The position numbers and the translations under genes are program-made. From NCBI RefSeq assembly GCF_016026235.1, contig NZ_CP065613.1: a stretch of 64,000 nucleotides of DNA, one strand, 5' to 3'. Shown here piece after piece: positions 28,771 to 41,741 of the stretch (positions are counted from its first letter, which is position 1; every line of letters starts with the position of its first letter). Source of the stretch: Escherichia coli. GTDB taxonomy: Bacteria; Pseudomonadota; Gammaproteobacteria; Enterobacterales; Enterobacteriaceae. Below the pieces are notes generated by a model. That model was given only the letters and a program-made list of their open reading frames with translations, made no database searches and was not told the DNA's origin.

Positions 28771-29913
28771 TTAAATTTGCTTTTCATACAATCGGTAACG
28801 CTTGTACGGCTCCGCCCCAATGCGTTCCAGCATGTTATTCATGCCTGTATTGGTTTCGAGGATCCATGACATCTCCAGCGCATCGATCTTCCGGCGGGCA
28901 AACGGATCGCGTAAGGCTTCAATCAATAACAGCGCAATCACCGGGCCGATGCGGCTGAACTGATACTCGTCGCGCACGCCCATCAGCGGTACTCGCGCAG
29001 TTCGCACACCGCTGACTTTCAAACGCCACAGCAATTTTGCCCAGCCGAAGGGAAAGAGCGATCCGTTCAGATCGGCAATCGCCTCGTTGATGTTCGGCAA
29101 GCCGACAATAAACGCGCAGGGTGCAGAATCAATCTCAGCGATATAGATCATATCGTCCGGCACCAGATATTTAAGTTGATCGCCCATGGTCGCGAATTCA
29201 TGTTCGGTAAACGGCACAAATCCCCAGTTGTGCTGCCAGCCAGAGTTGAAAATCTCACGCAGGATCTGCATTTCTTCGGCAAACCGCTGACGATTGATGC
29301 AGCGAATGGTCACCTTTTTGCGCACCTGATCCATCAGTTTTTTTAGCGCCGGAGAGAAAGTGAGATCGGTTCGCTGCATCCACCACGCCAGTAAATCAAT
29401 GCCTTTGTGATAACCCAGTTGTTCAATATGCGCGGCATACCACGGTTTGCCGTGTGGCATCATCGCACAGGGTGGTGTGTCAAAACCTTCAATCAGTAAT
29501 CCGCTTTCCTGATTGATATTCAGGCTGAAAGGACCGCTGATCTTACTTGCACCTTGTGACTTCAACCACGCTTCCGCTGCGCCAAACAACGCGGCAAAAA
29601 CCTGCGGATCATCAATGGCGTCAATCATGCCGAAATGACCGGTATCTTCACCGTAACGCTCACGGTGCAAGGTATCTATTTGCGCGGTAATACGCCCAAC
29701 TATCTGCCCCGCTTTTTTTGCCACCCACGCCTGCCAGATGATATGGTCCGTCCCCGGATTTTTCGCAGACAAATGCTCGTTGCGTTCAATGAATAAAGGG
29801 GGTATCCAGTTTGGATCGTCGGGATAAAGTAATGACGGAAAAGCGATAAATGCCTTAAGGTCATTTTTATTAATTACTTTTTCAATTTTAATCATCAGCA
29901 GATCGCATTCCAT
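28771..29913 (-). CDS. yghO: YghO-family protein, putative GNAT-like N-acyltransferase
   Basis: 380-aa ORF convergent with glcC and divergent from the FAAL operon; the acyltransferase assignment is inferred, not motif-proven. Confidence 0.55.
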   Translation of the reverse strand: MECDLLMIKIEKVINKNDLKAFIAFPSLLYPDDPNWIPPLFIERNEHLSAKNPGTDHIIWQAWVAKKAGQIVGRITAQIDTLHRERYGEDTGHFGMIDAIDDPQVFAALFGAAEAWLKSQGASKISGPFSLNINQESGLLIEGFDTPPCAMMPHGKPWYAAHIEQLGYHKGIDLLAWWMQRTDLTFSPALKKLMDQVRKKVTIRCINRQRFAEEMQILREIFNSGWQHNWGFVPFTEHEFATMGDQLKYLVPDDMIYIAEIDSAPCAFIVGLPNINEAIADLNGSLFPFGWAKLLWRLKVSGVRTARVPLMGVRDEYQFSRIGPVIALLLIEALRDPFARRKIDALEMSWILETNTGMNNMLERIGAEPYKRYRLYEKQI

Positions 29914-30283
29914 AGTTCTGTGGGTAACAAATAATTAACGGTGACAAACAGGTTGCAACAGCAACGAATGGCACCTTAATAATCAACCCAATGAATACAA
30001 ACGACGAATAAATAGTATTTATTAATGATTACGATAAGGTCAAAGACTACACAGAAGCGCCACAATGCCTTTTGTCGATTTAAGGCGACCGGACAAGGCT
30101 TCTTCTTAATATATTCATAAATTAAATATCATTCACAATAAAAACAAAAAACTTAAACTCATTATTTAAATCAATGTTCATTTTCACACCGATGAAAATA
30201 CTATCTCATTTATCTTTTATGCCTATATAATCCACCGCATTATTGTCATTTTATTTTTGATATCCAATTTTTTCGTGGTGTAT
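29914..30283. promoter_or_regulatory. AT-rich divergent promoter region between yghO and the FAAL operon
   Basis: About 370 bp of very AT-rich DNA with A/T tracts between two divergent genes. Confidence 0.35.
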
Positions 30284-32005
30284 ATGTCTAATAAAATCTT
30301 TACGCATTCCCTACCTATGCGCTATGCCGATTTTCCAACGCTGGTTGATGCTTTGGACTACGCCGCTCTGAGTAGCGCCGGAATGAATTTTTATGACAGA
30401 CGTTGCCAACTTGAAGATCAACTGGAATATCAGACGTTAAAAACGCGTGCCGAAGCTGGTGCGAAGCGGTTGTTATCGCTGAACCTGAAAAAAGGCGAAC
30501 GCGTGGCGCTGATTGCCGAAACGAGTAGCGGGTTCGTAGAGGCTTTTTTTGCCTGTCAGTATGCTGGCTTAGTCGCCGTCCCGTTGGCGATTCCAATGGG
30601 CGTCGGTCAGCGGGATTCCTGGAGCGCCAAACTCCAGGGTTTACTGGCAAGTTGCCAGCCCGCAGCCATTATCACTGGTGATGAGTGGTTGCCACTGGTC
30701 AATGCCGCGACGCATAACAACCCCGAATTACATGTTTTAAGCCACGCCTGGTTTAAGGCATTACCGGAAGCCGATGTTGCGCTCCAGCGTCCAGTTCCGA
30801 ACGATATCGCCTACCTCCAGTACACCTCCGGCAGCACCCGTTTTCCCCGTGGCGTCATTATCACCCATCGCGAAGTGATGGCTAATCTACGTGCTATAAG
30901 CCACGATGGCATTAAATTACGCCCTGGCGACCGCTGCGTCTCCTGGCTGCCTTTCTACCATGATATGGGACTGGTCGGCTTTCTCCTGACCCCCGTCGCC
31001 ACGCAACTTTCAGTAGATTATTTGCGCACTCAGGATTTTGCCATGCGTCCTTTGCAATGGCTTAAATTGATCAGTAAAAATCGCGGCACCATTTCCGTTG
31101 CGCCGCCGTTTGGCTATGAATTGTGCCAGCGCCGCGTGAATGAAAAAGATCTCGCTGAACTGGATCTTTCCTGCTGGCGCGTCGCTGGTATTGGTGCAGA
31201 ACCCATCTCCGCAGAACAACTCCATCAATTCGCTGAATGTTTCCGTCAGGTTAACTTTGACAATAAAACTTTCATGCCGTGCTACGGACTGGCAGAAAAT
31301 GCGCTGGCTGTCAGCTTCTCTGATGAAGCCTCCGGGGTTGTGGTTAACGAAGTGGATCGCGACATCCTCGAATATCAGGGTAAAGCCGTCGCGCCGGGTG
31401 CAGAGACACGCGCCGTATCGACTTTCGTCAACTGCGGCAAAGCGTTGCCGGAACATGGTATTGAAATCCGCAATGAAGCAGGTATGCCGGTCGCGGAACG
31501 TGTGGTAGGCCATATTTGCATCTCCGGTCCCAGTCTGATGAGCGGTTACTTTGGCGACCAGGCTTCGCAAGACGAGATTGCCGCGACGGGCTGGTTAGAC
31601 ACCGGCGACCTCGGTTATCTGCTGGACGGTTATCTGTATGTCACCGGACGCATTAAAGATCTGATTATTATTCGTGGCCGTAATATCTGGCCGCAGGATA
31701 TTGAATATATTGCGGAACAGGAACCGGAAATTCATTCTGGCGATGCGATTGCTTTTGTTACCGCCCAGGAAAAAATCATTTTGCAGATCCAGTGTCGGAT
31801 CAGCGATGAAGAACGTCGCGGACAGCTTATCCACGCGCTGGCAGCACGGATCCAAAGCGAATTTGGCGTAACAGCGGCTATCGATCTGTTGCCGCCCCAC
31901 AGCATTCCCCGAACGTCCTCCGGCAAGCCTGCCCGTGCGGAAGCGAAAAAACGTTATCAGAAGGCTTATGCTGCAAGCCTTCATGTGCAGGAATCCCTGG
32001 CATGA
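30284..32005 (+). CDS. fatty-acyl-AMP ligase / acyl-ACP synthetase-like adenylating enzyme
   Basis: Adenylation motifs YLQYTSGSTRFPRGV and GWLDTGDLGYL; about 573 aa from the internal ATG (track ORF starts at TTG 30257). Confidence 0.75.
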   Translation: MSNKIFTHSLPMRYADFPTLVDALDYAALSSAGMNFYDRRCQLEDQLEYQTLKTRAEAGAKRLLSLNLKKGERVALIAETSSGFVEAFFACQYAGLVAVPLAIPMGVGQRDSWSAKLQGLLASCQPAAIITGDEWLPLVNAATHNNPELHVLSHAWFKALPEADVALQRPVPNDIAYLQYTSGSTRFPRGVIITHREVMANLRAISHDGIKLRPGDRCVSWLPFYHDMGLVGFLLTPVATQLSVDYLRTQDFAMRPLQWLKLISKNRGTISVAPPFGYELCQRRVNEKDLAELDLSCWRVAGIGAEPISAEQLHQFAECFRQVNFDNKTFMPCYGLAENALAVSFSDEASGVVVNEVDRDILEYQGKAVAPGAETRAVSTFVNCGKALPEHGIEIRNEAGMPVAERVVGHICISGPSLMSGYFGDQASQDEIAATGWLDTGDLGYLLDGYLYVTGRIKDLIIIRGRNIWPQDIEYIAEQEPEIHSGDAIAFVTAQEKIILQIQCRISDEERRGQLIHALAARIQSEFGVTAAIDLLPPHSIPRTSSGKPARAEAKKRYQKAYAASLHVQESLA

Positions 32006-32916
32006 ATCAAACTGTCGCGGTGACGGGCGCTACCGGTTTTATCGGTAAATATATTATCGATAACCTGCTCGCCCGCGGCTTTCACGTTCGCGCATTGACG
32101 CGTACTGCCCGCGCTCACGTCAATGACAATCTCACCTGGGTGCGCGGTTCGCTGGAAGATACTCATTCACTTAGCGAACTGGTTGCCGGAGCCAGTGCGG
32201 TGGTCCATTGCGCTGGGCAAGTGCGCGGACACAAAGAAGAGATTTTTACCCACTGTAACGTTGACGGCAGCCTGCACCTGATGCAAGCGGCAAAAGAGAG
32301 CGGCTTTTGCCAACGTTTTCTGTTTATCTCTTCGCTGGCGGCGCGCCATCCCGAGCTCTCCTGGTACGCAAATTCCAAACACGTCGCCGAACAACGGCTG
32401 ACTGCAATGGCTGACGAAATTACGCTGGGCGTTTTTCGCCCGACAGCCGTGTATGGTCCCGGCGATAAAGAGTTAAAACCGCTGTTTGACTGGATGCTGC
32501 GCGGCCTGCTGCCACGACTTGGTGCACCAGATACACAGCTCTCTTTCCTGCACGTCACCGATTTTGCGCAAGCAGTGGGTCAGTGGTTAAGCGCCGAAAC
32601 TGTACAGACGCAAACCTATGAATTATGCGATGGCGTCGCTGGCGGCTATGACTGGCAACGCATACAGCAACTTGCCGCCAACGTCCGTTGCGGTTCCGTG
32701 CGAATGGTTGGTATTCCTCTGCCGGTACTCACCTGCCTTGCGGATATCAGTACCGCGTTGAGTCGCCTGGCAGGTAAAGAACCTATGCTGACCCGCTCGA
32801 AAATTCGTGAATTAACCCACGCCGACTGGTCGGCAAGTAATAACCGTATTTCTGAAGATATTAATTGGTTTCCCGGGATTAGCCTGGAACACGCATTACG
32901 CAACGGGCTATTTTGA
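32002..32916 (+). CDS. NAD(P)-dependent epimerase/dehydratase-family (extended SDR) reductase
   Basis: N-terminal Rossmann motif VAVTGATGFIGKYI; start overlaps the upstream stop by 4 nt. Confidence 0.7.
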   Translation: MNQTVAVTGATGFIGKYIIDNLLARGFHVRALTRTARAHVNDNLTWVRGSLEDTHSLSELVAGASAVVHCAGQVRGHKEEIFTHCNVDGSLHLMQAAKESGFCQRFLFISSLAARHPELSWYANSKHVAEQRLTAMADEITLGVFRPTAVYGPGDKELKPLFDWMLRGLLPRLGAPDTQLSFLHVTDFAQAVGQWLSAETVQTQTYELCDGVAGGYDWQRIQQLAANVRCGSVRMVGIPLPVLTCLADISTALSRLAGKEPMLTRSKIRELTHADWSASNNRISEDINWFPGISLEHALRNGLF

Positions 32917-32947
32917 TTGTCTTGTTTAAAGGTGTGTTAACGTTTCT

Positions 32948-33196
32948 ATGGTAAATCGTGAAATAGTAATGGATTACATCCTTTCCTGTTTACAGGATTT
33001 GGTCGAAAACGGTGTGGAAATTAAGCCCGACAGCGATCTCGTCAACGATCTTGGCCTGGAGTCGATCAAAGTGATGGATCTCTTAATGATGCTGGAAGAC
33101 AGATTCGATATTTCCATTCCTATTAATATTCTGCTGGATGTCAAAACCCCTGCGCAATTAATGGAAACTCTACTTCCATGGCTGGAGAATAAATAA
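32948..33196 (+). CDS. acyl carrier protein
   Basis: 82 aa with the phosphopantetheine-attachment signature DLGLESIKVMDL. Confidence 0.7.
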   Translation: MVNREIVMDYILSCLQDLVENGVEIKPDSDLVNDLGLESIKVMDLLMMLEDRFDISIPINILLDVKTPAQLMETLLPWLENK

Positions 33197-34368
33197 TGGG
33201 GCTATACGATAAATATGCGCGCCTTGCTGGCGAGCGACTGCAATTTAGTGACAACGGGTTAACACCGTTTGGCACCTGTATTGATGAAGTGTATTCCGCC
33301 ACCGAAGGCCGGATCGGCAATAAAAAAGTGATTCTGGCCGGGACCAATAATTATCTCGGTTTAACCTTTAATCATGATGCCATCAGCGAAGGTCAGGCAG
33401 CGTTAGCGGCCCAAGGCACCGGCACCACCGGTTCTCGTATGGCAAACGGCAGTTATGCGCCGCACCTGGCGTTAGAGAAAGAGATTGCCGAGTTTTTCAA
33501 TCGCCCTACCGCTATCGTTTTTTCAACCGGTTATACCGCTAATTTAGGCGTCATCAGCGCACTTGCCGACCATAACGCCGTGGTGTTACTGGATGCCGAC
33601 AGCCACGCCAGTATTTATGACGCCTGTTCTCTCGGTGGCGCGGAAATTATTCGTTTCCGCCATAACGATGCTAAAGATCTGGAACGGCGCATGGTTCGCC
33701 TCGGTGAACGGGCGAAAGAGGCGATTATCATCGTTGAGGGCATCTACAGCATGCTCGGTGACGTTGCGCCGCTGGCGGAAATTGTTGATATCAAACGTCG
33801 TCTCGGTGGTTATTTGATTGTCGATGAAGCGCATTCGTTTGGCGTGTTAGGCGCAACAGGGCGCGGACTGGCTGAAGCTGTCGGCGTTGAAGATGATGTG
33901 GATATTATCGTTGGTACTTTCAGTAAAAGTCTGGCCTCGATTGGCGGTTTTGCTGTCGGTTCGGAAGCGATGGAAGTGCTGCGCTACGGCAGCCGCCCGT
34001 ATATTTTTACCGCCTCTCCTTCTCCGTCCTGCATTGCGACCGTGCGCTCGTCGTTAAGAACTATTGCCACACAACCAGAGCTGCGGCAAAAGCTGATGGA
34101 TAACGCCAACCATCTGTATGACGGTCTGCAAAAACTGGGTTATGAGTTAAGTTCACATATTAGCCCGGTAGTGCCAGTAATAATCGGTTCGAAAGAGGAA
34201 GGTTTACGCATCTGGCGCGAGCTTATCTCGCTGGGCGTGTATGTGAATCTTATCCTGCCGCCTGCCGCGCCTGCAGGCATCACGCTGCTGCGCTGTAGCG
34301 TAAATGCTGCCCACAGTCGTGAGCAAATCGATGCCATCATTCAGGCATTTGCTACTCTGAAGCAGTAA
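33196..34368 (+). CDS. PLP-dependent alpha-oxoamine synthase (BioF/Kbl/serine palmitoyltransferase family)
   Basis: 390 aa with the conserved PLP-lysine context GTFSKSLASIGGF and a DEAHSFG motif; start overlaps the ACP stop by 1 nt. Confidence 0.75.
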   Translation: MGLYDKYARLAGERLQFSDNGLTPFGTCIDEVYSATEGRIGNKKVILAGTNNYLGLTFNHDAISEGQAALAAQGTGTTGSRMANGSYAPHLALEKEIAEFFNRPTAIVFSTGYTANLGVISALADHNAVVLLDADSHASIYDACSLGGAEIIRFRHNDAKDLERRMVRLGERAKEAIIIVEGIYSMLGDVAPLAEIVDIKRRLGGYLIVDEAHSFGVLGATGRGLAEAVGVEDDVDIIVGTFSKSLASIGGFAVGSEAMEVLRYGSRPYIFTASPSPSCIATVRSSLRTIATQPELRQKLMDNANHLYDGLQKLGYELSSHISPVVPVIIGSKEEGLRIWRELISLGVYVNLILPPAAPAGITLLRCSVNAAHSREQIDAIIQAFATLKQ

Positions 34369-34373
34369 TGTGA

Positions 34374-34406
34374 GCCCGCCGTGGTGTTTGCGCCACGGCG
34401 GGTTTA
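34374..34406. terminator. bidirectional terminator hairpin between convergent operons
   Basis: cccgccgtggtg / tttg / cgccacggcggg perfect stem followed by ttt, between the AOS stop and the convergent permease gene. Confidence 0.55.
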
Positions 34407-35483
34407 ATGTTGTCTGTCATACCAATACACCAGGCTCAACGCCACCAACACAAACGCTACCGGTAAACCGAGCGCGGTAACAGGTGCGCTTAACGCAAAT
34501 AGCAATCCCAGATTAACCATGATTTGATAGCTGATCCAGGTGAGTAAGCCCACGATGACGCCTACAGCGAGACGGCTACCCATCCCAGGCGAACGCGGGG
34601 CAGTAAAGGTAAACGGCACAGCCAGCAAAATCATCGCCAGGGTCAGGATGGGTTGCCCCAGTTTTTCCCACAGTGCAAGGCGGTATTCGCTGCTGGGTTG
34701 CCCGGTTTCCTGCAAATAATGGATGTAATGATTAAGCTGACGGACAGAAAAAGTATTCCCCGGCATTGATAACTCTTCAAGATTCATACTGGTGAAGGCC
34801 GATTGCCAGGCAAGATTATCTAATGTTTCCAGCGTTTCTTTGCCATTCAGCCATTTTTTATGATTCACACCATGCAGGACCCACGTTTTGTCGTCTTTAA
34901 TGGTGGCACTGCGTGCATAAATGTAGGATTCAAGCGAGAGATCGTCGGGATAATGAAATATCTCCACGCCCACCGGCTGGCCCTGCTCGTTCAGCGATTT
35001 CACCGTCACAAATTCATTACCACGCCTGGCCCACAGCATATTGCCGGTAATGTCATCGTCCTCCCCCAACGCGGTGGCGGTCGATTTGATTTGCAGCGCC
35101 TGTTGCTGCAATGGCGACGCCACCCACTCATCTATCGCGCCTAACGAAACAGTCCACAATATCCCGGCAACCAGCGCCACCAGTGCAATACGGAAGATAG
35201 AAAACCCCGTGCTGCGAATGGCGGTAAGCTCACTGTTTTTCGATAACTGCCCCAGGCCAACAATCCCTCCCAATAAGGCGATAAACGGCGAAAGTTCGAC
35301 CAGTGTGCGCGGTAAGGTCATTAGCACCACCAGCACCGCCTGAGTCCAGCGATAACCGCCCGGGCTGACATCATCCAGTTCGTTAATCAGGTTGAAGGTG
35401 GTAAAAAGCGGCAGCAATAGCCCTGCGGCGGCGGCAAAACCGAGAAAGAGATGACGGATTAAATAGCGACTGAAAACATTCAT
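34404..35483 (-). CDS. LptG-like permease (YjgP/YjgQ family), paralog
   Basis: Start at MNVFSRYLIRHLF gives a 4-nt ATGA overlap with the upstream gene; six predicted TM segments around a large periplasmic loop. Confidence 0.6.
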   Translation of the reverse strand: MNVFSRYLIRHLFLGFAAAAGLLLPLFTTFNLINELDDVSPGGYRWTQAVLVVLMTLPRTLVELSPFIALLGGIVGLGQLSKNSELTAIRSTGFSIFRIALVALVAGILWTVSLGAIDEWVASPLQQQALQIKSTATALGEDDDITGNMLWARRGNEFVTVKSLNEQGQPVGVEIFHYPDDLSLESYIYARSATIKDDKTWVLHGVNHKKWLNGKETLETLDNLAWQSAFTSMNLEELSMPGNTFSVRQLNHYIHYLQETGQPSSEYRLALWEKLGQPILTLAMILLAVPFTFTAPRSPGMGSRLAVGVIVGLLTWISYQIMVNLGLLFALSAPVTALGLPVAFVLVALSLVYWYDRQH

Positions 35484-36550
35484 CGGGAAAATTTCTGCAG
35501 CAAAGAGAAGTCGCGTGCGACCAGCATCAGCAGGCCCATTAGCATGAGTCCGGGTACTAACCACAAACCAGGAATGAGGGGAATCGCGCCGTTAGCCACC
35601 AGCGTACGGCAGACGTCGCCGCCATAAAAAATGGCAATAAACAGCAACGTCAGTGGCAATAATGTTGAAAATCGCCCTTGCCGCGGTTTTACCCGACTTA
35701 ATGAAATGGCCAGCAGCGCCATCAACAATGCTGTCAGGCCACGGCTTTGCCGCCATTGCAGTTCGGCATGATCGGCAGGAAATACAGAGCGTGCCAGCTC
35801 CGTGACCGATTTTGCTTTGCGTTTGACGTTAGGGCTTTGATCCAGCGGATTCAGATGTAATTGCAGATTACGGTAGATCTGTTCATTGTCGTCACGCCCC
35901 TGATGATCGAGAAGATAGGCAGTGCCGTTGTGCAACATAACGGTCGGTTTCTCGGGTGATGGGTCAACCACATCAACCGAACGGGCGCGGAAAATGCGGG
36001 TTCGATTGGCAGTAGAAGTATAAATCAGCGCGTCAGTCAGGCGATTATTATCCTGATCAACCGTCTGCGAAAGGATCATTCGTCCGTTATCGTTAGTGTT
36101 AAATTTCTTTGCCCGCAACTGGCGAACATCCAGCTCCGACTGCGACTGCTGCTCCAGTTGATAAATCTGCGCATAAGCCCACGGACGACCATACATCGAC
36201 AGAAGGGTGACAAAAATACTTAGCGGTATCGCCAGATAAAGAACGGCTTTGTACAAGCGTCCCGGACTGCCCCCCGCCGCAGAGATAGCGGTAATTTCCG
36301 AGTCGGTATACATCTGCCCTAGCGTCACGCCAACTGACACATACAGACCAACAGGTAACAACATCTCCAGTGCAATCAGCACTTTGTAGAAAACGATATC
36401 CAGCACAACATCAAGAGCTAATGTCCCATTTGCCGCTTCGGTCAGATAACGCTGTGCGGAGTAGCTGGCGAAAATAAAGATCAGAAAACCGACGATAATC
36501 AGCACCAGACGGCGCGTACCACGCATGATGTAGTGTTCAACCAGCTTCAT
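35480..36550 (-). CDS. LptF-like permease (YjgP/YjgQ family), paralog
   Basis: 356 aa with the same architecture as the neighbour; TM1-loop region GQMYTDSEITAISAAG resembles recalled LptF (YTESEITVMHACG). Confidence 0.6.
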   Translation of the reverse strand: MKLVEHYIMRGTRRLVLIIVGFLIFIFASYSAQRYLTEAANGTLALDVVLDIVFYKVLIALEMLLPVGLYVSVGVTLGQMYTDSEITAISAAGGSPGRLYKAVLYLAIPLSIFVTLLSMYGRPWAYAQIYQLEQQSQSELDVRQLRAKKFNTNDNGRMILSQTVDQDNNRLTDALIYTSTANRTRIFRARSVDVVDPSPEKPTVMLHNGTAYLLDHQGRDDNEQIYRNLQLHLNPLDQSPNVKRKAKSVTELARSVFPADHAELQWRQSRGLTALLMALLAISLSRVKPRQGRFSTLLPLTLLFIAIFYGGDVCRTLVANGAIPLIPGLWLVPGLMLMGLLMLVARDFSLLQKFSR

Positions 36551-36580
36551 CTCACTAACGCCCTCAATCCTTTGAATTTT

Positions 36581-37144
36581 TTATTCATTGATCAGTTTCT
36601 GCGCCAGCGCAATGACATGATCTACCTCTTCCGGCGTCAGGCTGCCGTCCTTTGCCCACTGAATTTGCCCGGTTTTATTCAGCACCAGAATGGTTGAACT
36701 CTGCTCCGGCAAGCGCCAGGCAACGCGTCCCTGTCCATTGCCGTCAATAACGAATTGCGCCCACGGATAGCGGCGTTTATTTTTTTCGATTTTGCCAACG
36801 ACAAAATAGCCAGTACCAAAGATGGCATCATCAGTGTTCACAATGGTGGTGGGCTGAAAACGATCCTGTGGAAAGTTTGCCGCTTCAACCGCTTTAATTA
36901 ACAGTGAGTTCTTCTTCTTCGCTGACTTACGCCCGGCGATATACTGGATAATGCGGACTTTTCCCGCCAATTGTGTGCTGTTCCACTTTTGGTAGTGAAT
37001 TTCGTCGTCGCTATTCAGAAGCAGCTCGCCGCCTTCCTGAATATAAACAGGGGTAACCGTTTTGCCAGTGACGAAATTGTGTGCCTGCACACCCGGGGCT
37101 AAGAGCATGATAATCAGCGCAATAATCAAACGAGATGACATCAT
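36581..37144 (-). CDS. periplasmic protein with signal peptide (YtfJ-like)
   Basis: Signal peptide MMSSRLIIALIIMLLAPGVQA; resemblance to YtfJ is from memory only. Confidence 0.45.
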   Translation of the reverse strand: MMSSRLIIALIIMLLAPGVQAHNFVTGKTVTPVYIQEGGELLLNSDDEIHYQKWNSTQLAGKVRIIQYIAGRKSAKKKNSLLIKAVEAANFPQDRFQPTTIVNTDDAIFGTGYFVVGKIEKNKRRYPWAQFVIDGNGQGRVAWRLPEQSSTILVLNKTGQIQWAKDGSLTPEEVDHVIALAQKLINE

Positions 37145-37152
37145 TGCTCCGG

Positions 37153-37977
37153 TTATAGCGGAAAACGCGAAATCAGCAGCTCTAAGCGCTGGCGAATATC
37201 GCTATCCAGCGCCACCGGTGCATCATACGACTGGCGGTTTTCCATATCATCCGCCACCATGTCGTCGTGTTTATCCCCCATCAGGCCATTAATGGCGGCG
37301 AGGAAACGGGAAATCTGTAACGCCTCTTTATTTTCAGGATCAAGCGATCTTAAGGTGTCGTAATAAGAAACCTGCTGGCTGATGATTTTTCGCACATCAT
37401 GAAATTCCCTGCCGGTTAGTCGCGGTTTGGCAATTATCTCTTTCAGGGCATGCATTTGCTTTTGCCGATAGGCAATAAAACCGCTTACGCTTTCTAACTG
37501 GCTATGGCGTAATGAATAGTTCACCAACGACCAGACCGGAGAGCTTAAATAAATTCGTAACAGGTTGCCGTAATACGACACAATATTTTTCTTACCGTTA
37601 CGAAATCCGTCCTGAAAACGTCCCAGAAAAACGGTCGTTTTGCCGAATAAAAATCTGGCCTGATGCTTTTTTAAATACAGCCGTTGTGCAAAACGTAGAT
37701 GCTTGTAGCGCGCTCGCATGTATTTAAACTGTTTACGCTCGTCTGTCGTCAGCTCATCGCCTTTGGCTTGTTTGCGAATTAAACGAAGTAATTCCTGACG
37801 ATCAACGCCATTGAGCCAGAATTGCAGGCATAACGCGTAATTATCATGGATGATTTCGGTGGTACAACATAGTGCGATAGTCGGCGGCAAACTGACCTGG
37901 GCATCAACAACATCATCTTCCTCAATCGCAACAAATAGATGCTCGCTCGCCTCAAGCGGGAAATATTTTCTCATCAT
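37153..37977 (-). CDS. hypothetical cytoplasmic protein (274 aa)
   Basis: ORF whose start overlaps the flippase stop by 1 nt; no recognisable motif. Confidence 0.45.
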   Translation of the reverse strand: MMRKYFPLEASEHLFVAIEEDDVVDAQVSLPPTIALCCTTEIIHDNYALCLQFWLNGVDRQELLRLIRKQAKGDELTTDERKQFKYMRARYKHLRFAQRLYLKKHQARFLFGKTTVFLGRFQDGFRNGKKNIVSYYGNLLRIYLSSPVWSLVNYSLRHSQLESVSGFIAYRQKQMHALKEIIAKPRLTGREFHDVRKIISQQVSYYDTLRSLDPENKEALQISRFLAAINGLMGDKHDDMVADDMENRQSYDAPVALDSDIRQRLELLISRFPL

Positions 37978-39326
37978 CAGGATTTCTCTCCGGCTGCGTT
38001 ATAAAGCAAGGAATGGCGCTGAAAAAAAGCCTTTAAGATCGGAATTAGCGAAAGCACCACATCCAGACATTGACCGCCGAAATAAGCAAACGCTGCTCCC
38101 AGCACGCCAAACAGATGACAGAACATGAACAGCAATACGATGTAGCCGATTGAGGCGATGGTTTGCGCCACGAGAAAAGCGCGCTGTTTTCCCGCCATCA
38201 ATAGCAATGACTCCTGAGGGAAGCCCAGCATCGAGATCACAATTGCGCCCAGCATCACCTGAATCAGGTCATACGCTTCGAGATACTTAACGCCAAACAC
38301 CAGCGAAATGAGCGGCTTGCCGACGATCAACACCGCGAGCGCCACCAGAATACCGATTCCGCCCGCCAGTAAACCGGACTTCACACCTAACAACCACGGT
38401 CTGGTGGTGCGCGGATCTAAACGCATCACCTCTGGGTAAAAACTTTTACCCAGCAAACCCGCTGGCGTTCCGGCGGCGTCGAAGAATGTCATGGCGATTT
38501 TAAATAACCCGGCGACAGCGGGTCCTAACACGATCCCCACCAACACTGTGCTGCACGAGTTACGCGCCGACCAGATGGAGTGGGCAATGTTGGTTGACCA
38601 GACAAAACTCCACGCGCCTTTAATGTGTCGGGCAGACTCAAACAGATTCAATTTGAAGGCGTTATGGATATTTCTGCGGCGTAATTCGCGCGCGGCAAAC
38701 CACCAGTACATGGTGCCGCCAACCAGATTCGACACGTACCAGGCAATAACAAAACCCGCAAAACCAAAGTCAAAATACCAGGCTGCGACGCTCCCCGCTG
38801 CGCGCAGAAAAGGTTTCGTCGCCTGCTGTACAGCAATCAAATCAAAGCGATCTACCGCACGCAGAATGCCGGTCGGCGTGGAGGAAGCCATTGAAGGAAT
38901 GAGCGTGCAATACAGCGCTGCCAGCCAAAAGCTTTGGTCATCCAGACCTAATGAATGGGAAAGAAAAGGGAGTAAGGCAATGCCGCCGACAATCGCCACC
39001 GCGCCGCTGACGATATCCAGCGAGAAGGAAAATGAGACGACATTGCGAAATTGCTGCGGATTATTGTTGGTTAATGCTGGTGTTCCGTACTGAACCACCA
39101 GCTGCCATGTCTGAAACTTAATAAAATCGCTGATCGACTTGGCGTACGATTGCACAATCACCAGTACGCCAAACATGGCGGGCGTCATCCCTTTACCGGC
39201 ACACGAGAGCGCCAACAGACCCAGCAAGGCGCTCACGACATTACTGGAGCCTAACCAGGCGCTATTGCGAATAATGGTGCGAAACGCGCCATCTGCAAAC
39301 CAATGTTTGATGTTAAAACCCGCCAA
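37977..39326 (-). CDS. yghQ: MOP-superfamily (Wzx-like) polysaccharide/lipid flippase
   Basis: 449-aa protein with about 12 hydrophobic segments. Confidence 0.65.
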   Translation of the reverse strand: MAGFNIKHWFADGAFRTIIRNSAWLGSSNVVSALLGLLALSCAGKGMTPAMFGVLVIVQSYAKSISDFIKFQTWQLVVQYGTPALTNNNPQQFRNVVSFSFSLDIVSGAVAIVGGIALLPFLSHSLGLDDQSFWLAALYCTLIPSMASSTPTGILRAVDRFDLIAVQQATKPFLRAAGSVAAWYFDFGFAGFVIAWYVSNLVGGTMYWWFAARELRRRNIHNAFKLNLFESARHIKGAWSFVWSTNIAHSIWSARNSCSTVLVGIVLGPAVAGLFKIAMTFFDAAGTPAGLLGKSFYPEVMRLDPRTTRPWLLGVKSGLLAGGIGILVALAVLIVGKPLISLVFGVKYLEAYDLIQVMLGAIVISMLGFPQESLLLMAGKQRAFLVAQTIASIGYIVLLFMFCHLFGVLGAAFAYFGGQCLDVVLSLIPILKAFFQRHSLLYNAAGEKS

Positions 39327-39371: not shown

Positions 39372-40130
39372 TTAAGTTAAACTTCGGCGGTCAGAAACGA
39401 TGGCAACCAGAGAAACCGCCTTCTGTGCCTGTTCCAGCACTTCGCTGTAGGGCGCTCTGGAATCAATCTCAAGAATTTTTGTGCCGTTATAGCCAATCGT
39501 CGACATAACACTGATTTTGTCCTGCAGCTCGGCATAGTCATGGTCAGGCTTGCGGGAGATGGCAGTCTCAATATCAATGCCCAGGCGAATAATTAATTCC
39601 GGGCGATATTGCGCCATTTGTTGGTATAAACGCCGTTCGCGCTGCGCCAGAAACATGCTGATTTTCCCGGTCGCACGTTCGACGCCAATCCCCGGTCCGT
39701 CATAATAAAAGCCCGAAATTTCAGCCTGCGGGAAGCGATCGCTGACCACCAGAACGCCACTTTGCGCCAGTCGCTGAACCTTGCGTAGATTCGCCATTCT
39801 TCGCAGCGAGAAGCAGTACATAATCACCGCCGCCCATAGCGCCGGAGATTTGGTTTTCATGCTTTGGGTTTTCGAGGATTTGGCCGCCAGTCGCCGTTCC
39901 AGCCAGACGCCAACCAACGGCAATCGTTTGATTTTGTCGCCGTCTTCGCCGGAGAGCAGCCCCAAATAGCGGCGCTCGGTTTGCCAGTGTTGTTGCAGCG
40001 ATTTCACCAGGTCGGTGGTCAGTGTGGATTTACCGGTGCCATCACACCCGACCACCGCAATCAGCCCCGGAATGTAGTTGGGCTGCGGCGCGGTTGTACT
40101 AATAACAGTTTGTGTTTGTAGTGCATCCAT
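39372..40130 (-). CDS. yghR: P-loop NTPase, kinase-like
   Basis: Walker A VGCDGTGKST; shares DRFPQ and SRKPDH motifs with two neighbouring paralogs. Confidence 0.65.
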   Translation of the reverse strand: MDALQTQTVISTTAPQPNYIPGLIAVVGCDGTGKSTLTTDLVKSLQQHWQTERRYLGLLSGEDGDKIKRLPLVGVWLERRLAAKSSKTQSMKTKSPALWAAVIMYCFSLRRMANLRKVQRLAQSGVLVVSDRFPQAEISGFYYDGPGIGVERATGKISMFLAQRERRLYQQMAQYRPELIIRLGIDIETAISRKPDHDYAELQDKISVMSTIGYNGTKILEIDSRAPYSEVLEQAQKAVSLVAIVSDRRSLT

Positions 40131-40161: not shown

Positions 40162-40875
40162 TCAAGAAAGCGCGGCGTGAATTGCGCGTAGTGACGCTTG
40201 CAGAATTTCATCGGCTGGTTGCCGACCATCCAGTTCAAGGATCTTTGCGCCATTGAATGTCAATTGCGGCGTAACGGCGATTTTTTCCTGTAACGCTGCC
40301 AGTTGGTGGTCAGGTTTACGCGCAAACGCGGTTTGTTCATCAATGCCAAGACGAATCAACAATACGGGTAAATAAGACGCCATCCATTGGTACAGCTTCA
40401 ACTCGCGCTGCCTTAACATTTTTATCCAACCGTTACCGCCCGTGGTTTTTGCCAATTGCGGGCCATCAAAGCGAAAACCCGGCACTTCAACCTGCGGGTA
40501 GCGGTCGGTGATGAGCAGATGGCCTTGCTGGCTTCTACACAACATTTTGCGAAACTTGTACGCCCGCCAGCAGGAAAGCAGATAGATAACCAGCGCAGTA
40601 ATATTGCCAGGCGGTGTTGAGGGCTTTTCGTGCACATGTGCCGCTTTACTTCGCAGATAACGCCCAAAAGGTGCGCCAATAACAGGGAGCTGTGAAATCC
40701 ATTCGCCAATTCGCCCGGACGATTGCCCGAGATAAATGCGTTCTGTTGGCATTCTTGCTGCCAGTTCATTTACCAGGCTTGCCGTGAGGGTCGATTTACC
40801 TGAACCATCACATCCTACAATGGCAATAACACGCACTGGCGTGGAATTAATTATTGACATATTACGTTGATTCAC
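40162..40875 (-). CDS. yghS: P-loop NTPase, kinase-like
   Basis: Walker A VGCDGSGKST, plus DRYPQ and ARKPDH motifs. Confidence 0.65.
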   Translation of the reverse strand: MNQRNMSIINSTPVRVIAIVGCDGSGKSTLTASLVNELAARMPTERIYLGQSSGRIGEWISQLPVIGAPFGRYLRSKAAHVHEKPSTPPGNITALVIYLLSCWRAYKFRKMLCRSQQGHLLITDRYPQVEVPGFRFDGPQLAKTTGGNGWIKMLRQRELKLYQWMASYLPVLLIRLGIDEQTAFARKPDHQLAALQEKIAVTPQLTFNGAKILELDGRQPADEILQASLRAIHAALS

Positions 40876-41048
40876 GAAAAACCCGGCAGTAAATAATGTA
40901 TTGAATATTACGTGGTCCGTGCTCAGAATATCCGTTCAACCTTATTGTGACAATGGTTAATTGTGACATTGACCTGAATTACGCTTTCATAAAAACATAT
41001 TAACCAAATAAATATTTTGGATGGATATTTAAATTTAAGGATATATTC

Positions 41049-41741
41049 ATGCAGTCAATAACACCTCCATTAATTGCCGTTATTGGTAGCGATGGTTCAG
41101 GCAAGTCAACGGTGTGTGAACATCTCATTACCGTTGTCGAAAAATATGGTGCTGCCGAAAGAGTTCATTTAGGAAAACAAGCCGGAAATGTCGGTCGTGC
41201 AGTGACAAAATTACCGTTGATGGGAAAATCCTTACATAAAACAATTGAACGAAATCAGGTGAAAACAGCAAAAAAATTGCCAGGACCAGTTCCGGCGCTG
41301 GTAATTACAGCGTTTGTCGCCCGTCGCTTACTGCGCTTTCGTCATATGCTTGCCTGTCGTCGTCGCGGGTTAATTGTTCTAACCGACCGTTATCCTCAGG
41401 ACCAAATTCCTGGCGCTTACGATGGTACGGTGTTCCCACCTAACGTTGAAGGTGGTCGTTTTGTCTCATGGCTGGCAAGCCAGGAACGTAAAGCGTTTCA
41501 CTGGATGGCGAGCCATAAGCCTGATCTGGTCATCAAACTCAATGTCGATCTAGACGTGGCCTGCGCGCGTAAGCCTGACCACAAAAGGGAATCGCTGGCA
41601 AGAAAGATAGCCATAACGCCACAGTTAACCTTTGGTGGTGCACAACTGGTTGATATCGACGCCAATCAGCCACTGGAACAGGTGTTAGTTGATGCAGAAA
41701 AAGCGATTACGGATTTTATGACCGCGCGTGGTTATCACTAG
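41049..41741 (+). CDS. yghT: P-loop NTPase, kinase-like
   Basis: Walker [10 protein letters not shown], plus DRYPQ and ARKPDH motifs; divergent from yghS. Confidence 0.65.

What the first reader, a model, noticed from the sequence alone, without database searches (positions are those of the whole stretch)
36581..37977. Two unassigned genes between the permeases and the flippase
A signal-peptide-bearing periplasmic protein (187 aa, YtfJ-like from memory) and a 274-aa cytoplasmic protein with no recognisable motif sit in the same minus-strand gene string as the transport genes. Their conserved position implies a role in the pathway, perhaps modification or periplasmic handling, and they are the least predictable part of the locus.
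Basis: inference. Interest (0 to 1): 0.45.

Follow-up and report, generated by a model that had tools for sequence, protein, structure and literature searches.

The report
Two accessory genes of E. coli's sphingolipid locus
The two unnamed genes are real members of the sphingolipid-making and -exporting gene cluster found in about three quarters of E. coli strains: one is a hidden relative of polyphosphate-binding CHAD proteins tied to the lipid flippase and three kinases, and the other is a cysteine-free periplasmic copy of the uncharacterised protein YtfJ.

Summary
Both ORFs exist exactly as described and evolve under purifying selection (dN/dS 0.07-0.12). They lie in one minus-strand operon, yghS-yghR-yghQ(flippase)-[274 aa]-[187 aa]-lptF2-lptG2. 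This operon sits beside the aasR-cerR-acpR-spt genes that others have shown to make 3-oxosphinganine in E. coli B.

The 187-aa protein is a clear YtfJ-family member, 54% identical to K-12 YtfJ. It has a signal peptide, a thioredoxin-like fold and no cysteine. A conserved basic loop sits where redox relatives carry CXXC.

My best reading, which is inferred, is a phosphate-head-group module. The CHAD-like protein would bind the (poly)phosphate moiety for the kinases and flippase. The YtfJ copy would handle the anionic lipid in the periplasm. The gene identities are solid; the mechanism is untested. I rate this a moderately interesting new variant of known kinds.

The parts
37153..37977 (-). 274-aa cytoplasmic CHAD-fold protein (here called P274). 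It is a divergent CHAD-like subfamily and its start is translationally coupled to yghQ.
36581..37144 (-). 187-aa periplasmic YtfJ-family paralogue (here called YtfJL). It has a cysteine-free thioredoxin-like fold.
37977..39326 (-). yghQ, a MOP-family (Polysacc_synt) flippase of 449 aa, full length. It is truncated in K-12.
   Evidence: Pfam PF01943/PF13440. NCBIfam MOP flippase, weak. K-12 comparison.
39372..40130 (-). yghR, a dTMP-kinase-superfamily P-loop kinase paralogue.
   Evidence: Pfam Thymidylate_kin at 27.1 bits. Invariant Walker A, DRYPQ and RKPDH motifs. The profile's best PDB hits are thymidylate kinases.
40162..40875 (-). yghS, a dTMP-kinase-superfamily P-loop kinase paralogue and the first gene of the minus-strand operon.
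   Evidence: A promoter-like site lies at 40953-40925.
41049..41741 (+). yghT, the third dTMP-kinase-like paralogue, transcribed divergently.
35480..36550 (-). lptF2, an LptF-like permease paralogue.
   Evidence: Pfam LptF_LptG at E 8e-54 and TIGR04407 at 318 bits.
34404..35483 (-). lptG2, an LptG-like permease paralogue. The start used here is the RefSeq one, which overlaps lptF2 by 4 nt.
   Evidence: Pfam LptF_LptG at E 2e-68 and TIGR04408 at 306 bits.
34371..34406 (.). Bidirectional terminator-like hairpin between the convergent spt and lptG2 genes.
   Evidence: Stem of 16 pairs, 10 of them G-C.
33196..34368 (+). spt, serine palmitoyltransferase.
   Evidence: Pfam Aminotran_1_2. RefSeq name. 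The E. coli BL21 orthologue ECD_02854 has been assayed (PMC9386255).
32948..33196 (+). acpR, the specialised acyl carrier protein.
   Evidence: Pfam PP-binding. PMC9386255.
32002..32916 (+). cerR/epi, an NAD-dependent epimerase/dehydratase-family reductase.
   Evidence: Pfam Epimerase. PMC9386255.
30317..32005 (+). aasR, a fatty acyl-AMP ligase / acyl-AcpR synthetase.
   Evidence: Pfam AMP-binding. RefSeq start. PMC9386255.
28771..29913 (-). yghO, the predicted N-acyltransferase (bacterial ceramide synthase candidate).
   Evidence: RefSeq YghO. Assigned as 'aca' ECD_02850 in PMC9386255.

Best explanation
Shown here:
- The two ORFs are co-transcribed members of the E. coli-type sphingolipid locus, in the operon yghS-yghR-yghQ-P274-ytfJL-lptF2-lptG2. 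This operon sits beside yghO and aasR-cerR-acpR-spt.
- P274 is a soluble cytoplasmic protein with a CHAD fold: two four-helix bundles of the kind that bind inorganic polyphosphate along a basic cavity. It keeps the CHAD H-x2-R-x3-[KR] signature as K85/R88/K92/R95 and H193/R196/K197.
- P274 is the constant partner of a MOP flippase and of two to three dTMP-kinase-like paralogues in Enterobacterales, Rhodanobacteraceae, Sphingomonas and a metagenomic locus. In Carnimonas it sits with the kinases and spt but no flippase was found in the stretches read.
- YtfJL is a secreted, cysteine-free thioredoxin-fold paralogue of YtfJ. It was added to this module only in loci of the enterobacterial type.

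Inferred:
- The only head-group enzymes in the locus are kinases of a superfamily that phosphorylates phosphomonoesters, and the flippase family normally moves lipid-diphosphate-linked cargo. The module therefore most likely makes a ceramide carrying a phosphate, diphosphate or short oligophosphate head group.
- P274 binds that (poly)phosphate moiety, or a polyphosphate donor, on the cytoplasmic face. It holds or presents it to the kinases and the flippase.
- After flipping, YtfJL binds the anionic head group through its basic AGRxSAKKKN loop, which sits at the site where redox relatives carry CXXC. It then hands the lipid on, or shields it, before LptF2G2 extracts it toward the outer membrane.
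For: Identity of P274:
- AF2 gives pLDDT 91.5.
- Foldseek also ranks 6qv5 first.
- phmmer relatives at E down to 1e-27 pass the Pfam CHAD cutoff, and 26 of 82 hit CHAD.
- The family profile aligns to 6qv5 at E 0.0027, over the motifs whose His/Arg bind polyP in CtCHAD and SsCHAD (PMC6537752).
- R88, D123, H193 and R196 are invariant in 82 relatives. pI is 9.2.

Linkage:
- The stop and start codons overlap.
- The flippase lies immediately upstream in 50 of 53 loci. The Flip-P274(-YtfJL) block stays together while lptF2G2 and the spt operon move around it.
- Sphingomonas gellani has a bare kinase-kinase-flippase-P274 module.
- Metagenomic locus L065 (37% identity) has three dTMPK-like genes, a flippase, a P274-like gene and an LptF/G pair.
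- All three kinases keep Walker A, DRYPQ and RKPDH motifs.
- dTMPK-like paralogues next to a CHAD gene are also the layout of the experimentally shown PPK3 operon (PMC12995831).
- Fusions of an APH/choline-kinase-like domain with a CHAD-like domain exist.

YtfJL: family scores; 54% identity to YtfJ; fold; no Cys; basic loop at the strand 63-70 / helix 72-89 junction.

Pathway context: PMC9386255 and PMC11324152.
Against: - No binding, lipid or genetic data exist for either gene, and the lipid product of the E. coli locus has not been reported in the papers I could search.
- P274 itself falls below the Pfam CHAD threshold.
- The Foldseek E-value is weak, at 0.06.
- In the first bundle the CHAD histidine is a lysine.
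- CHAD proteins studied so far bind free polyphosphate, not lipids.
- The kinases are no closer to the PPK3 catalytic subunit (5h70, E 0.023) than to ordinary thymidylate kinases (E 5e-6). The locus has no PPX or SixA gene.
- The YtfJL model is only moderately confident (pLDDT 74, low in residues 17-60).
- The canonical YtfJ works in K-12, which lacks the locus, so the family's function is not sphingolipid-specific.
- YtfJL is absent from non-enterobacterial versions, including ones with LptF/G paralogues.
- My locus sample was seeded on P274, so it cannot show spt loci that lack it. The Caulobacter-type cluster does lack it.
Confidence: 0.45

Rival explanations
1. P274 is a polyphosphate sensor or regulator rather than a handler of the lipid. 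It binds free cytoplasmic polyP, as ordinary CHAD proteins do. In this way it couples kinase and flippase activity, or use of polyP as phosphoryl donor, to the cell's phosphate and energy status.
For: The CHAD fold and conserved polyP-type motifs are present. dTMPK-like paralogues plus CHAD is the PPK3 operon layout, where polyP is the substrate. E. coli makes polyP (established knowledge). The phosphate transporter gene pitB lies next to yghT.
Against: I found no Pho box in the yghS/yghT control region. pitB adjacency is not kept in other genera, where the cluster is rearranged. Strict translational coupling to a membrane flippase is unusual for a soluble sensor.
Confidence: 0.2
2. P274 keeps only the CHAD scaffold. 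It acts as a structural subunit or assembly factor of the flippase and/or the kinase complex and has no phosphate-binding role.
For: It falls below the Pfam CHAD threshold. It has the lowest sequence conservation of the 13 cluster genes, at a mean of 62% identity, which is typical of non-catalytic partners. It is tightly coupled to yghQ.
Against: The residues that stay invariant across 82 distant relatives are exactly the basic and His positions of the CHAD phosphate-binding motif, R88, H193 and R196. Distant relatives occur outside any flippase context.
Confidence: 0.15
3. YtfJL is a passenger. It is a duplicated general periplasmic YtfJ protein that landed in the operon in an enterobacterial ancestor and contributes nothing specific to the sphingolipid pathway.
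For: It is missing from all 9 non-enterobacterial loci. The family has a housekeeping copy in K-12, which lacks the locus. Nothing is known of YtfJ function.
Against: It is retained next to Flip-P274 in all 48 loci of the enterobacterial type, despite repeated rearrangement of the surrounding genes. In Sodalis it is inverted but still adjacent. It is under purifying selection, with dN/dS 0.12. It is co-transcribed with an 8-nt gap and its own Shine-Dalgarno sequence.
Confidence: 0.15
4. YtfJL is a redox partner. In this reading it supplies reducing power to a periplasmic ceramide reductase, as thioredoxin-fold DsbE/TlpA proteins do for their clients.
For: It has a thioredoxin-like fold with DsbE/TlpA/ResA as best matches. 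Caulobacter CerR is reported to be periplasmic with an unknown electron source (PMC11087976).
Against: The protein has no cysteine at all, and none is conserved in 22 orthologues. E. coli CerR shows no signal peptide in its sequence.
Confidence: 0.03

Closest known systems
CHAD domains (Pfam PF05235; CtCHAD 3e0s/6qv7, RcCHAD 6qv5, PptA 6rn5, C-terminal domain of E. coli YgiF 5a61)
   Different: P274 is below the Pfam threshold. The first-bundle His is replaced by Lys. The genomic context is a lipid synthesis and export operon, translationally coupled to a MOP flippase, rather than ppk/ppx/CYTH genes. No polyP binding has been shown.
PPK3 operon of Sulfolobus acidocaldarius (saci_2017-2021: SixA, PPX, two dTMP-kinase paralogues, CHAD protein; PMC12995831)
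   Same: Several dTMP-kinase-superfamily paralogues, encoded in addition to the real thymidylate kinase, sit beside a CHAD-type gene.
   Different: This locus has three paralogues that all keep catalytic motifs. It has no PPX or SixA. The kinases show no specific sequence affinity to the cPPK3 homologue 5h70. The operon is embedded in ceramide synthesis, flippase and LptFG genes.
YtfJ (b4216) / HI0045 family (PF09695, TIGR01626)
   Same: YtfJL is a full-length match at 54% identity. It has the same signal peptide type, the same H-[NQ]-F mature N-terminus and the same basic AGRxSAKxKN loop.
   Different: It is a second copy placed inside the sphingolipid operon, whereas the canonical gene lies between ytfI and ytfK with no lipid genes nearby. 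The function of the family is itself unknown.
Periplasmic thioredoxin-fold oxidoreductases (DsbE/CcmG, TlpA, ResA) and peroxiredoxins
   Different: YtfJL has no CXXC and no cysteine at all. The helix-N-terminal active-site position is occupied by Arg/Lys/Ser residues.
Caulobacter crescentus sphingolipid region CC_1152-CC_1168 (PMC11324152)
   Same: It has the same five dihydroceramide genes, a Polysacc_synt-type flippase candidate (CC_1166) and second copies of LptF and LptG.
   Different: Caulobacter uses a DAG-kinase-type ceramide kinase, a CDP-DAG-synthase-like protein and phosphoglycerate-related enzymes, plus an LptC2. It has no CHAD-like gene, no YtfJ-like gene and no dTMPK-like trio among the 17 genes as described. 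The E. coli-type head-group module is therefore different.

Membership tests
CHAD domain (PF05235) | Two four-helix bundles related by a pseudo-twofold axis | tested here: met
CHAD domain (PF05235) | Scores above the Pfam gathering threshold | tested here: not met
   P274 and its close orthologues get no Pfam hit. 26 of 82 more distant family members hit CHAD at E<0.01. Some relatives pass the cutoff: P0182 at 40.9 bits and P0253 at 36.8 bits, against 25.6.
CHAD domain (PF05235) | Conserved His/Arg/Lys signature (H-x2-R-x3-R) lining the central cavity, shown to bind polyP in CtCHAD and SsCHAD | tested here: met
   The profile alignment to 6qv5 pairs H193/R196 with the CHAD H/R, and K85/R88/K92/R95 with H/R/R/R. 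R88, H193 and R196 are invariant in 82 sequences. The motif definition comes from PMC6537752. In the first bundle the His is replaced by Lys.
CHAD domain (PF05235) | Binds inorganic polyphosphate | not testable with these tools
   This needs purified protein (ITC, GCI or gel shift).
YtfJ_HI0045 family (PF09695 / TIGR01626) | Full-length match above the curated cutoffs | tested here: met
   Pfam 200.3 bits against 24. TIGR01626 213.2 bits against 151.1, covering residues 2-185. 54% identity to K-12 YtfJ.
Thiol-disulfide oxidoreductases of the thioredoxin fold (DsbE/TlpA/ResA) | CXXC (or at least one catalytic Cys) at the N-terminus of the first core helix | tested here: not met
   There are zero cysteines in the protein, and none in 22 orthologues. 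Only the fold is shared.
PPK3-type polyphosphate kinase system | dTMPK-superfamily paralogues encoded beside a CHAD gene | tested here: met
   yghR, yghS and yghT flank yghQ-P274. The same holds in other orders.
PPK3-type polyphosphate kinase system | Kinases belong to the PPK3 clade, with PPX/SixA neighbours | tested here: not met
   The YghRST profile scores ordinary thymidylate kinases at E 5e-6 but the cPPK3 homologue 5h70 only at E 0.023. There is no PPX or SixA in the locus. No phylogeny was made.
Lpt periplasmic bridge proteins (LptC/LptA) | OstA-type beta-jellyroll fold | tested here: not met
   YtfJL has a thioredoxin-like alpha/beta fold. It may do an analogous job, but it is not a member.
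Rhodobacterial sphingolipid (dihydroceramide) gene cluster | aasR, cerR/epi, acpR, spt and the N-acyltransferase yghO present together | tested here: met
   Domain hits, RefSeq names and equivalence to ECD_02850-02854 of E. coli BL21, of which AasR, AcpR and Spt have been assayed (PMC9386255).

The most novel reading that the evidence does not exclude
The E. coli-type locus may build a lipid-anchored oligo- or polyphosphate. In this reading, the three dTMP-kinase-like paralogues act like PPK3 and extend a phosphate chain on ceramide phosphate. The CHAD-like P274 holds the growing chain. The MOP flippase moves it across the inner membrane. YtfJL and LptF2G2 then deliver it to the cell surface. 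The result would be a new class of envelope lipid in most E. coli strains.
Probability: 0.08. Interest if true: 0.9.

Novelty: new variant of a known kind. Interest (0 to 1): 0.5.

Why it matters
About 77% of complete E. coli genomes carry this locus, including E. coli B/BL21, but K-12 lost it to an IS5-associated deletion. Its lipid product and export route are unknown.

Bacterial sphingolipid research has explicitly lacked flippase and transport components. Recognising the 274-aa protein as a CHAD-type phosphate-polymer binder, locked to a MOP flippase and three dTMPK-like kinases, gives a concrete and testable prediction: the head group is phosphate-based and differs from the Caulobacter ceramide-phosphoglycerate system. 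It also extends CHAD proteins from polyphosphate granule biology into membrane lipid assembly.

The YtfJ copy offers the first functional context for the YtfJ family, which is widespread and has no known role.

Tried and rejected
- Direct Pfam, NCBIfam and PDB sequence searches of P274 gave nothing. Profile searches of the YtfJ-like family against PDB sequences also gave nothing.
- I tested whether Caulobacter CC_1167, the gene next to its flippase, might be the P274 counterpart. It is described as a CDP-glycerol glycerophosphotransferase-like protein, so I rejected the idea. The Caulobacter ceramide kinase is of the DAG-kinase type, unrelated to YghRST.
- I looked for a specific PPK3 affinity of YghRST and found none.
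- I rejected a redox role for YtfJL because it has no cysteine.
- I rejected positive selection as the cause of the two genes' higher divergence, because dN/dS is about 0.1.
- A Pho-box search in the operon's control region found no site there, and window-wide matches were at chance level.
- Context look-ups of very distant P274 relatives mostly returned short contigs or unrelated neighbourhoods.
- Literature searches for yghQ/R/S/T, YtfJ and an E. coli sphingolipid product found no functional study of either gene.
- The AlphaFold-database fold library was unavailable.
Full report
**What is there.** The window is E. coli chromosome from the glc - yghO - pitB - gss region. DNA covering the finding is 99.9% identical to strain FDAARGOS_943.

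They lie in a tight gene string: yghS (40162-40875), yghR (39372-40130), the MOP flippase yghQ (37977-39326), the 274-aa gene (here P274), the 187-aa gene (here YtfJL), lptF2 (35480-36550) and lptG2 (34404-35483). The flippase stop and the P274 start share a base (TGATG). Eight bases containing a GGAG separate P274 from YtfJL, and 30 bases separate YtfJL from lptF2. There are no more terminator-like sites inside the string than chance would give. A 16-pair hairpin at 34371-34406 closes both this operon and the convergent spt operon.

Against other Escherichia lineages both genes show purifying selection, with dN/dS of 0.07-0.08 for P274 and 0.12 for YtfJL.

**The pathway is not unknown.** The plus-strand genes aasR, cerR, acpR and spt, together with yghO, correspond to ECD_02850-02854 of E. 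coli BL21(DE3). Padilla-Gomez et al. showed that AcpR carries phosphopantetheine, that AasR acylates it, and that Spt prefers acyl-AcpR to make 3-oxosphinganine (PMC9386255).

In Caulobacter, the equivalent region also holds second copies of LptC, LptF and LptG and a Polysacc_synt-type flippase candidate. These are proposed, but not shown, to export phosphosphingolipids (PMC11324152).

Neither paper mentions the two genes studied here, and I found no study of them or of yghQ/R/S/T function. K-12 MG1655 carries an IS5 between yghO and a 3'-truncated yghQ, in place of aasR through P274. That explains why the two genes have no y-names. Among 5426 complete E. coli genomes, 4177 have the two-gene stretch, 4134 have spt and 4676 have yghR-yghS.

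**The 187-aa protein.** It is an unambiguous YtfJ-family member, with Pfam PF09695 at 200 bits and TIGR01626 at 213 bits. It is a paralogue of the canonical K-12 YtfJ, at 54% identity over the full length. It has a Sec signal peptide ending VQA|HNF.

The junction of strand 63-70 and helix 72-89 is where this fold normally carries CXXC (inferred from fold topology). There the family has a conserved basic loop, AGR(K/T)SAKKKN. The mature protein has pI 9.3. A redox role is therefore rejected, and an anion-binding role is a reasonable inference. The first mature residues, H22 and N23, are invariant and F24 is nearly so. I cannot explain this.

**The 274-aa protein.** It has no Pfam, NCBIfam or PDB sequence match. 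With an alignment of 22 orthologues, AlphaFold gives a confident all-helical model (pLDDT 91.5, pTM 0.88).

An exhaustive phmmer search found 209 cluster representatives. Several pass the Pfam CHAD cutoff, and 26 of 82 full-length relatives hit CHAD at E<0.01. A profile of these 82 sequences hits 6qv5 at E 0.0027. That alignment places P274 K85/R88/K92/R95 and H193/R196 on the repeated CHAD H-x2-R-x3-R motif. R88, D123, H193 and R196 are invariant across the 82.

Lorenzo-Orts et al. showed that this motif (H253/R256/R260 in CtCHAD, H29/R32/R36 in SsCHAD) lines the central cavity and binds polyphosphate (PMC6537752). P274 is thus a divergent CHAD-fold protein that keeps the phosphate-binding signature. 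It fails the Pfam threshold, and actual binding is untested.

**Who travels with whom.** A scan of one genome per GTDB species with the P274 alignment returned 57 loci. I mapped all 13 cluster proteins onto them with tblastn.

The flippase lies immediately upstream of P274, on the same strand, in 50 of the 53 loci with enough upstream sequence. The exceptions are a second tandem P274 copy in Luteibacter and the two Carnimonas loci.

Within Enterobacterales the lptF2G2 pair and the spt operon are found in several different arrangements, but Flip-P274-YtfJL stays together. In one Sodalis, YtfJL is inverted but still adjacent.

YtfJL is present in 48 loci. All are enterobacterial, apart from one contig attributed to Martelella alba that looks enterobacterial throughout. 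YtfJL is absent from all nine other loci:
- five Rhodanobacteraceae, with the order Spt-Flip-P274 and no LptF2G2; instead a yghO-MFP-RND-RND-OMF operon abuts P274
- two Carnimonas loci
- two Sphingomonas loci

Sphingomonas gellani has a bare kinase-kinase-flippase-P274 module. A metagenomic locus with a 37%-identical P274 has three dTMPK-like genes, a flippase, the P274-like gene, a YghO-like gene, an LptF/G pair, a PAP2 phosphatase, an LpxO-like hydroxylase and a DAG-kinase-type gene, but no YtfJ. Relatives below about 30% identity sit in unrelated contexts.

So P274 is a core partner of the kinase and flippase module, and YtfJL is an enterobacterial addition. P274 and YtfJL are the least conserved of the 13 proteins, at mean identities of 62% and 64%, against 82% for Spt. 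This fits binding or accessory proteins rather than enzymes.

One caveat applies. The sample was seeded on P274, so it cannot reveal spt loci that lack P274, and the Caulobacter-type cluster does lack it.

**How it most likely works.** The steps below are inferred.

The only candidate head-group enzymes in the E. coli-type locus are YghR, YghS and YghT. All three keep Walker A, DRYPQ and RKPDH motifs. Their nearest solved relatives are thymidylate kinases, which are enzymes that phosphorylate a phosphomonoester. MOP flippases normally move lipid-diphosphate-linked cargo (established knowledge).

A CHAD-type protein next to dTMP-kinase paralogues is also the layout of the newly described PPK3 polyphosphate kinase operon of Sulfolobus (PMC12995831). 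However, YghRST show no specific affinity to the PPK3 catalytic subunit homologue 5h70, and the locus has no PPX or SixA.

The simplest synthesis is this. Ceramide made by YghO, Spt and CerR is phosphorylated one or more times. P274 binds the phosphate or oligophosphate moiety, or a polyphosphate donor, and presents it to the kinases and the flippase. After flipping, YtfJL binds the anionic head group in the periplasm. LptF2G2 then extract the lipid toward the outer membrane.

I give this 0.45. The identities carry most of that weight, and the mechanistic details carry much less.

The rivals are:
- P274 as a free-polyP sensor or regulator (0.2)
- P274 as a purely structural partner (0.15)
- YtfJL as a passenger (0.15)
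- YtfJL as a redox partner (0.03, effectively refuted by the lack of cysteine)

**Novelty and value.** The locus and its ceramide genes are published. The two genes are unassigned in the literature I could search. One is a new, context-shifted variant of the CHAD family, and the other is a second copy of an uncharacterised family. I rate the finding a new variant of a known kind, with interest 0.5.

The boldest reading not excluded is a lipid-anchored oligo- or polyphosphate exported to the E. coli surface. I give it about 0.08 probability. It would be highly interesting if true.

Noticed in passing
L064 (NC_000913.3 3130146-3131340), corresponding to window ~29900-38260: In K-12 MG1655 an IS5 (insH9) sits between yghO and a 3'-truncated yghQ (355 aa against 449 aa). 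It replaces aasR, cerR, acpR, spt, lptG2, lptF2, YtfJL and P274. About 500 more E. coli genomes keep yghR-yghS than keep spt.
   Followed up: partly
L048 10804-20758 (Rhodanobacter sp. L36); similar in L049, L050, L053: Rhodanobacteraceae versions of the locus lack LptF2G2 and YtfJL. Instead, a yghO - membrane-fusion protein - two AcrB-type RND pumps - outer-membrane factor operon abuts P274. This suggests a different export route for the same lipid module.
   Followed up: partly
L044 10001-11757; L049 9152-10816; protein P0123: P274 is tandemly duplicated in two Luteibacter genomes. A 564-aa protein in the database is a fused tandem pair of P274-like units.
   Followed up: no
L035 (contig attributed to Martelella alba BGMRC 2031): A genome labelled as an alphaproteobacterium carries the complete enterobacterial-type cluster, including YtfJL, at 60-78% identity to E. 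coli. This points to contamination, misbinning or recent transfer. UniRef names its P274 homologue 'CHAD domain-containing protein'.
   Followed up: no
window 40944-40968: The divergent yghS/yghT control region has a direct repeat, ATTGTGACA-N7-ATTGTGACA, overlapping the promoter-like site for yghS. This may be a regulator binding site. I found no Pho box there.
   Followed up: partly
window 34404-39326 compared with L003-L005: Between Escherichia lineages, synonymous divergence is higher across lptG2 and P274 (dS 0.5-0.8; yghQ 0.36-0.57) than in spt and acpR (0.13-0.39). In E. coli genomes the two-gene stretch is rarely at least 99% identical to the window (18 genomes, against 1609 for spt). 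This suggests distinct allelic lineages or recombination in this half of the locus.
   Followed up: partly
proteins P0253 and P0268 (loci L060, L061): Roughly 980-aa proteins fuse an APH/choline-kinase-like phosphotransferase domain to CHAD-like units related to P274. This is a second, independent kinase-CHAD association, outside any sphingolipid context.
   Followed up: partly
window 37079-37087 (codons for H22-N23-F24 of YtfJL): In 22 orthologues the first two residues of the mature YtfJ-like protein (His-Asn) are invariant and the third (Phe) is nearly so. The canonical YtfJ has His-Gln-Phe. A conserved N-terminal histidine right after signal-peptide cleavage is unexplained.
   Followed up: no
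L065 1-16837 (metagenome ERR13912362): A distant version of the module combines three dTMPK-like genes, the flippase and a P274-like gene with an LpxO-type hydroxylase, a PAP2 lipid phosphatase, a DAG-kinase-type gene and an LptF/G pair. This hints at further head-group remodelling steps in other lineages.
   Followed up: partly
proteins P0033 and P0288: There are odd database entries. An 82%-identical P274 homologue is named 'type II secretion system protein GspM' and carries a precomputed PF04612 hit. A 275-aa E. coli protein joins YtfJ and LptF domains, which is probably a frameshift or an annotation artefact.
   Followed up: no
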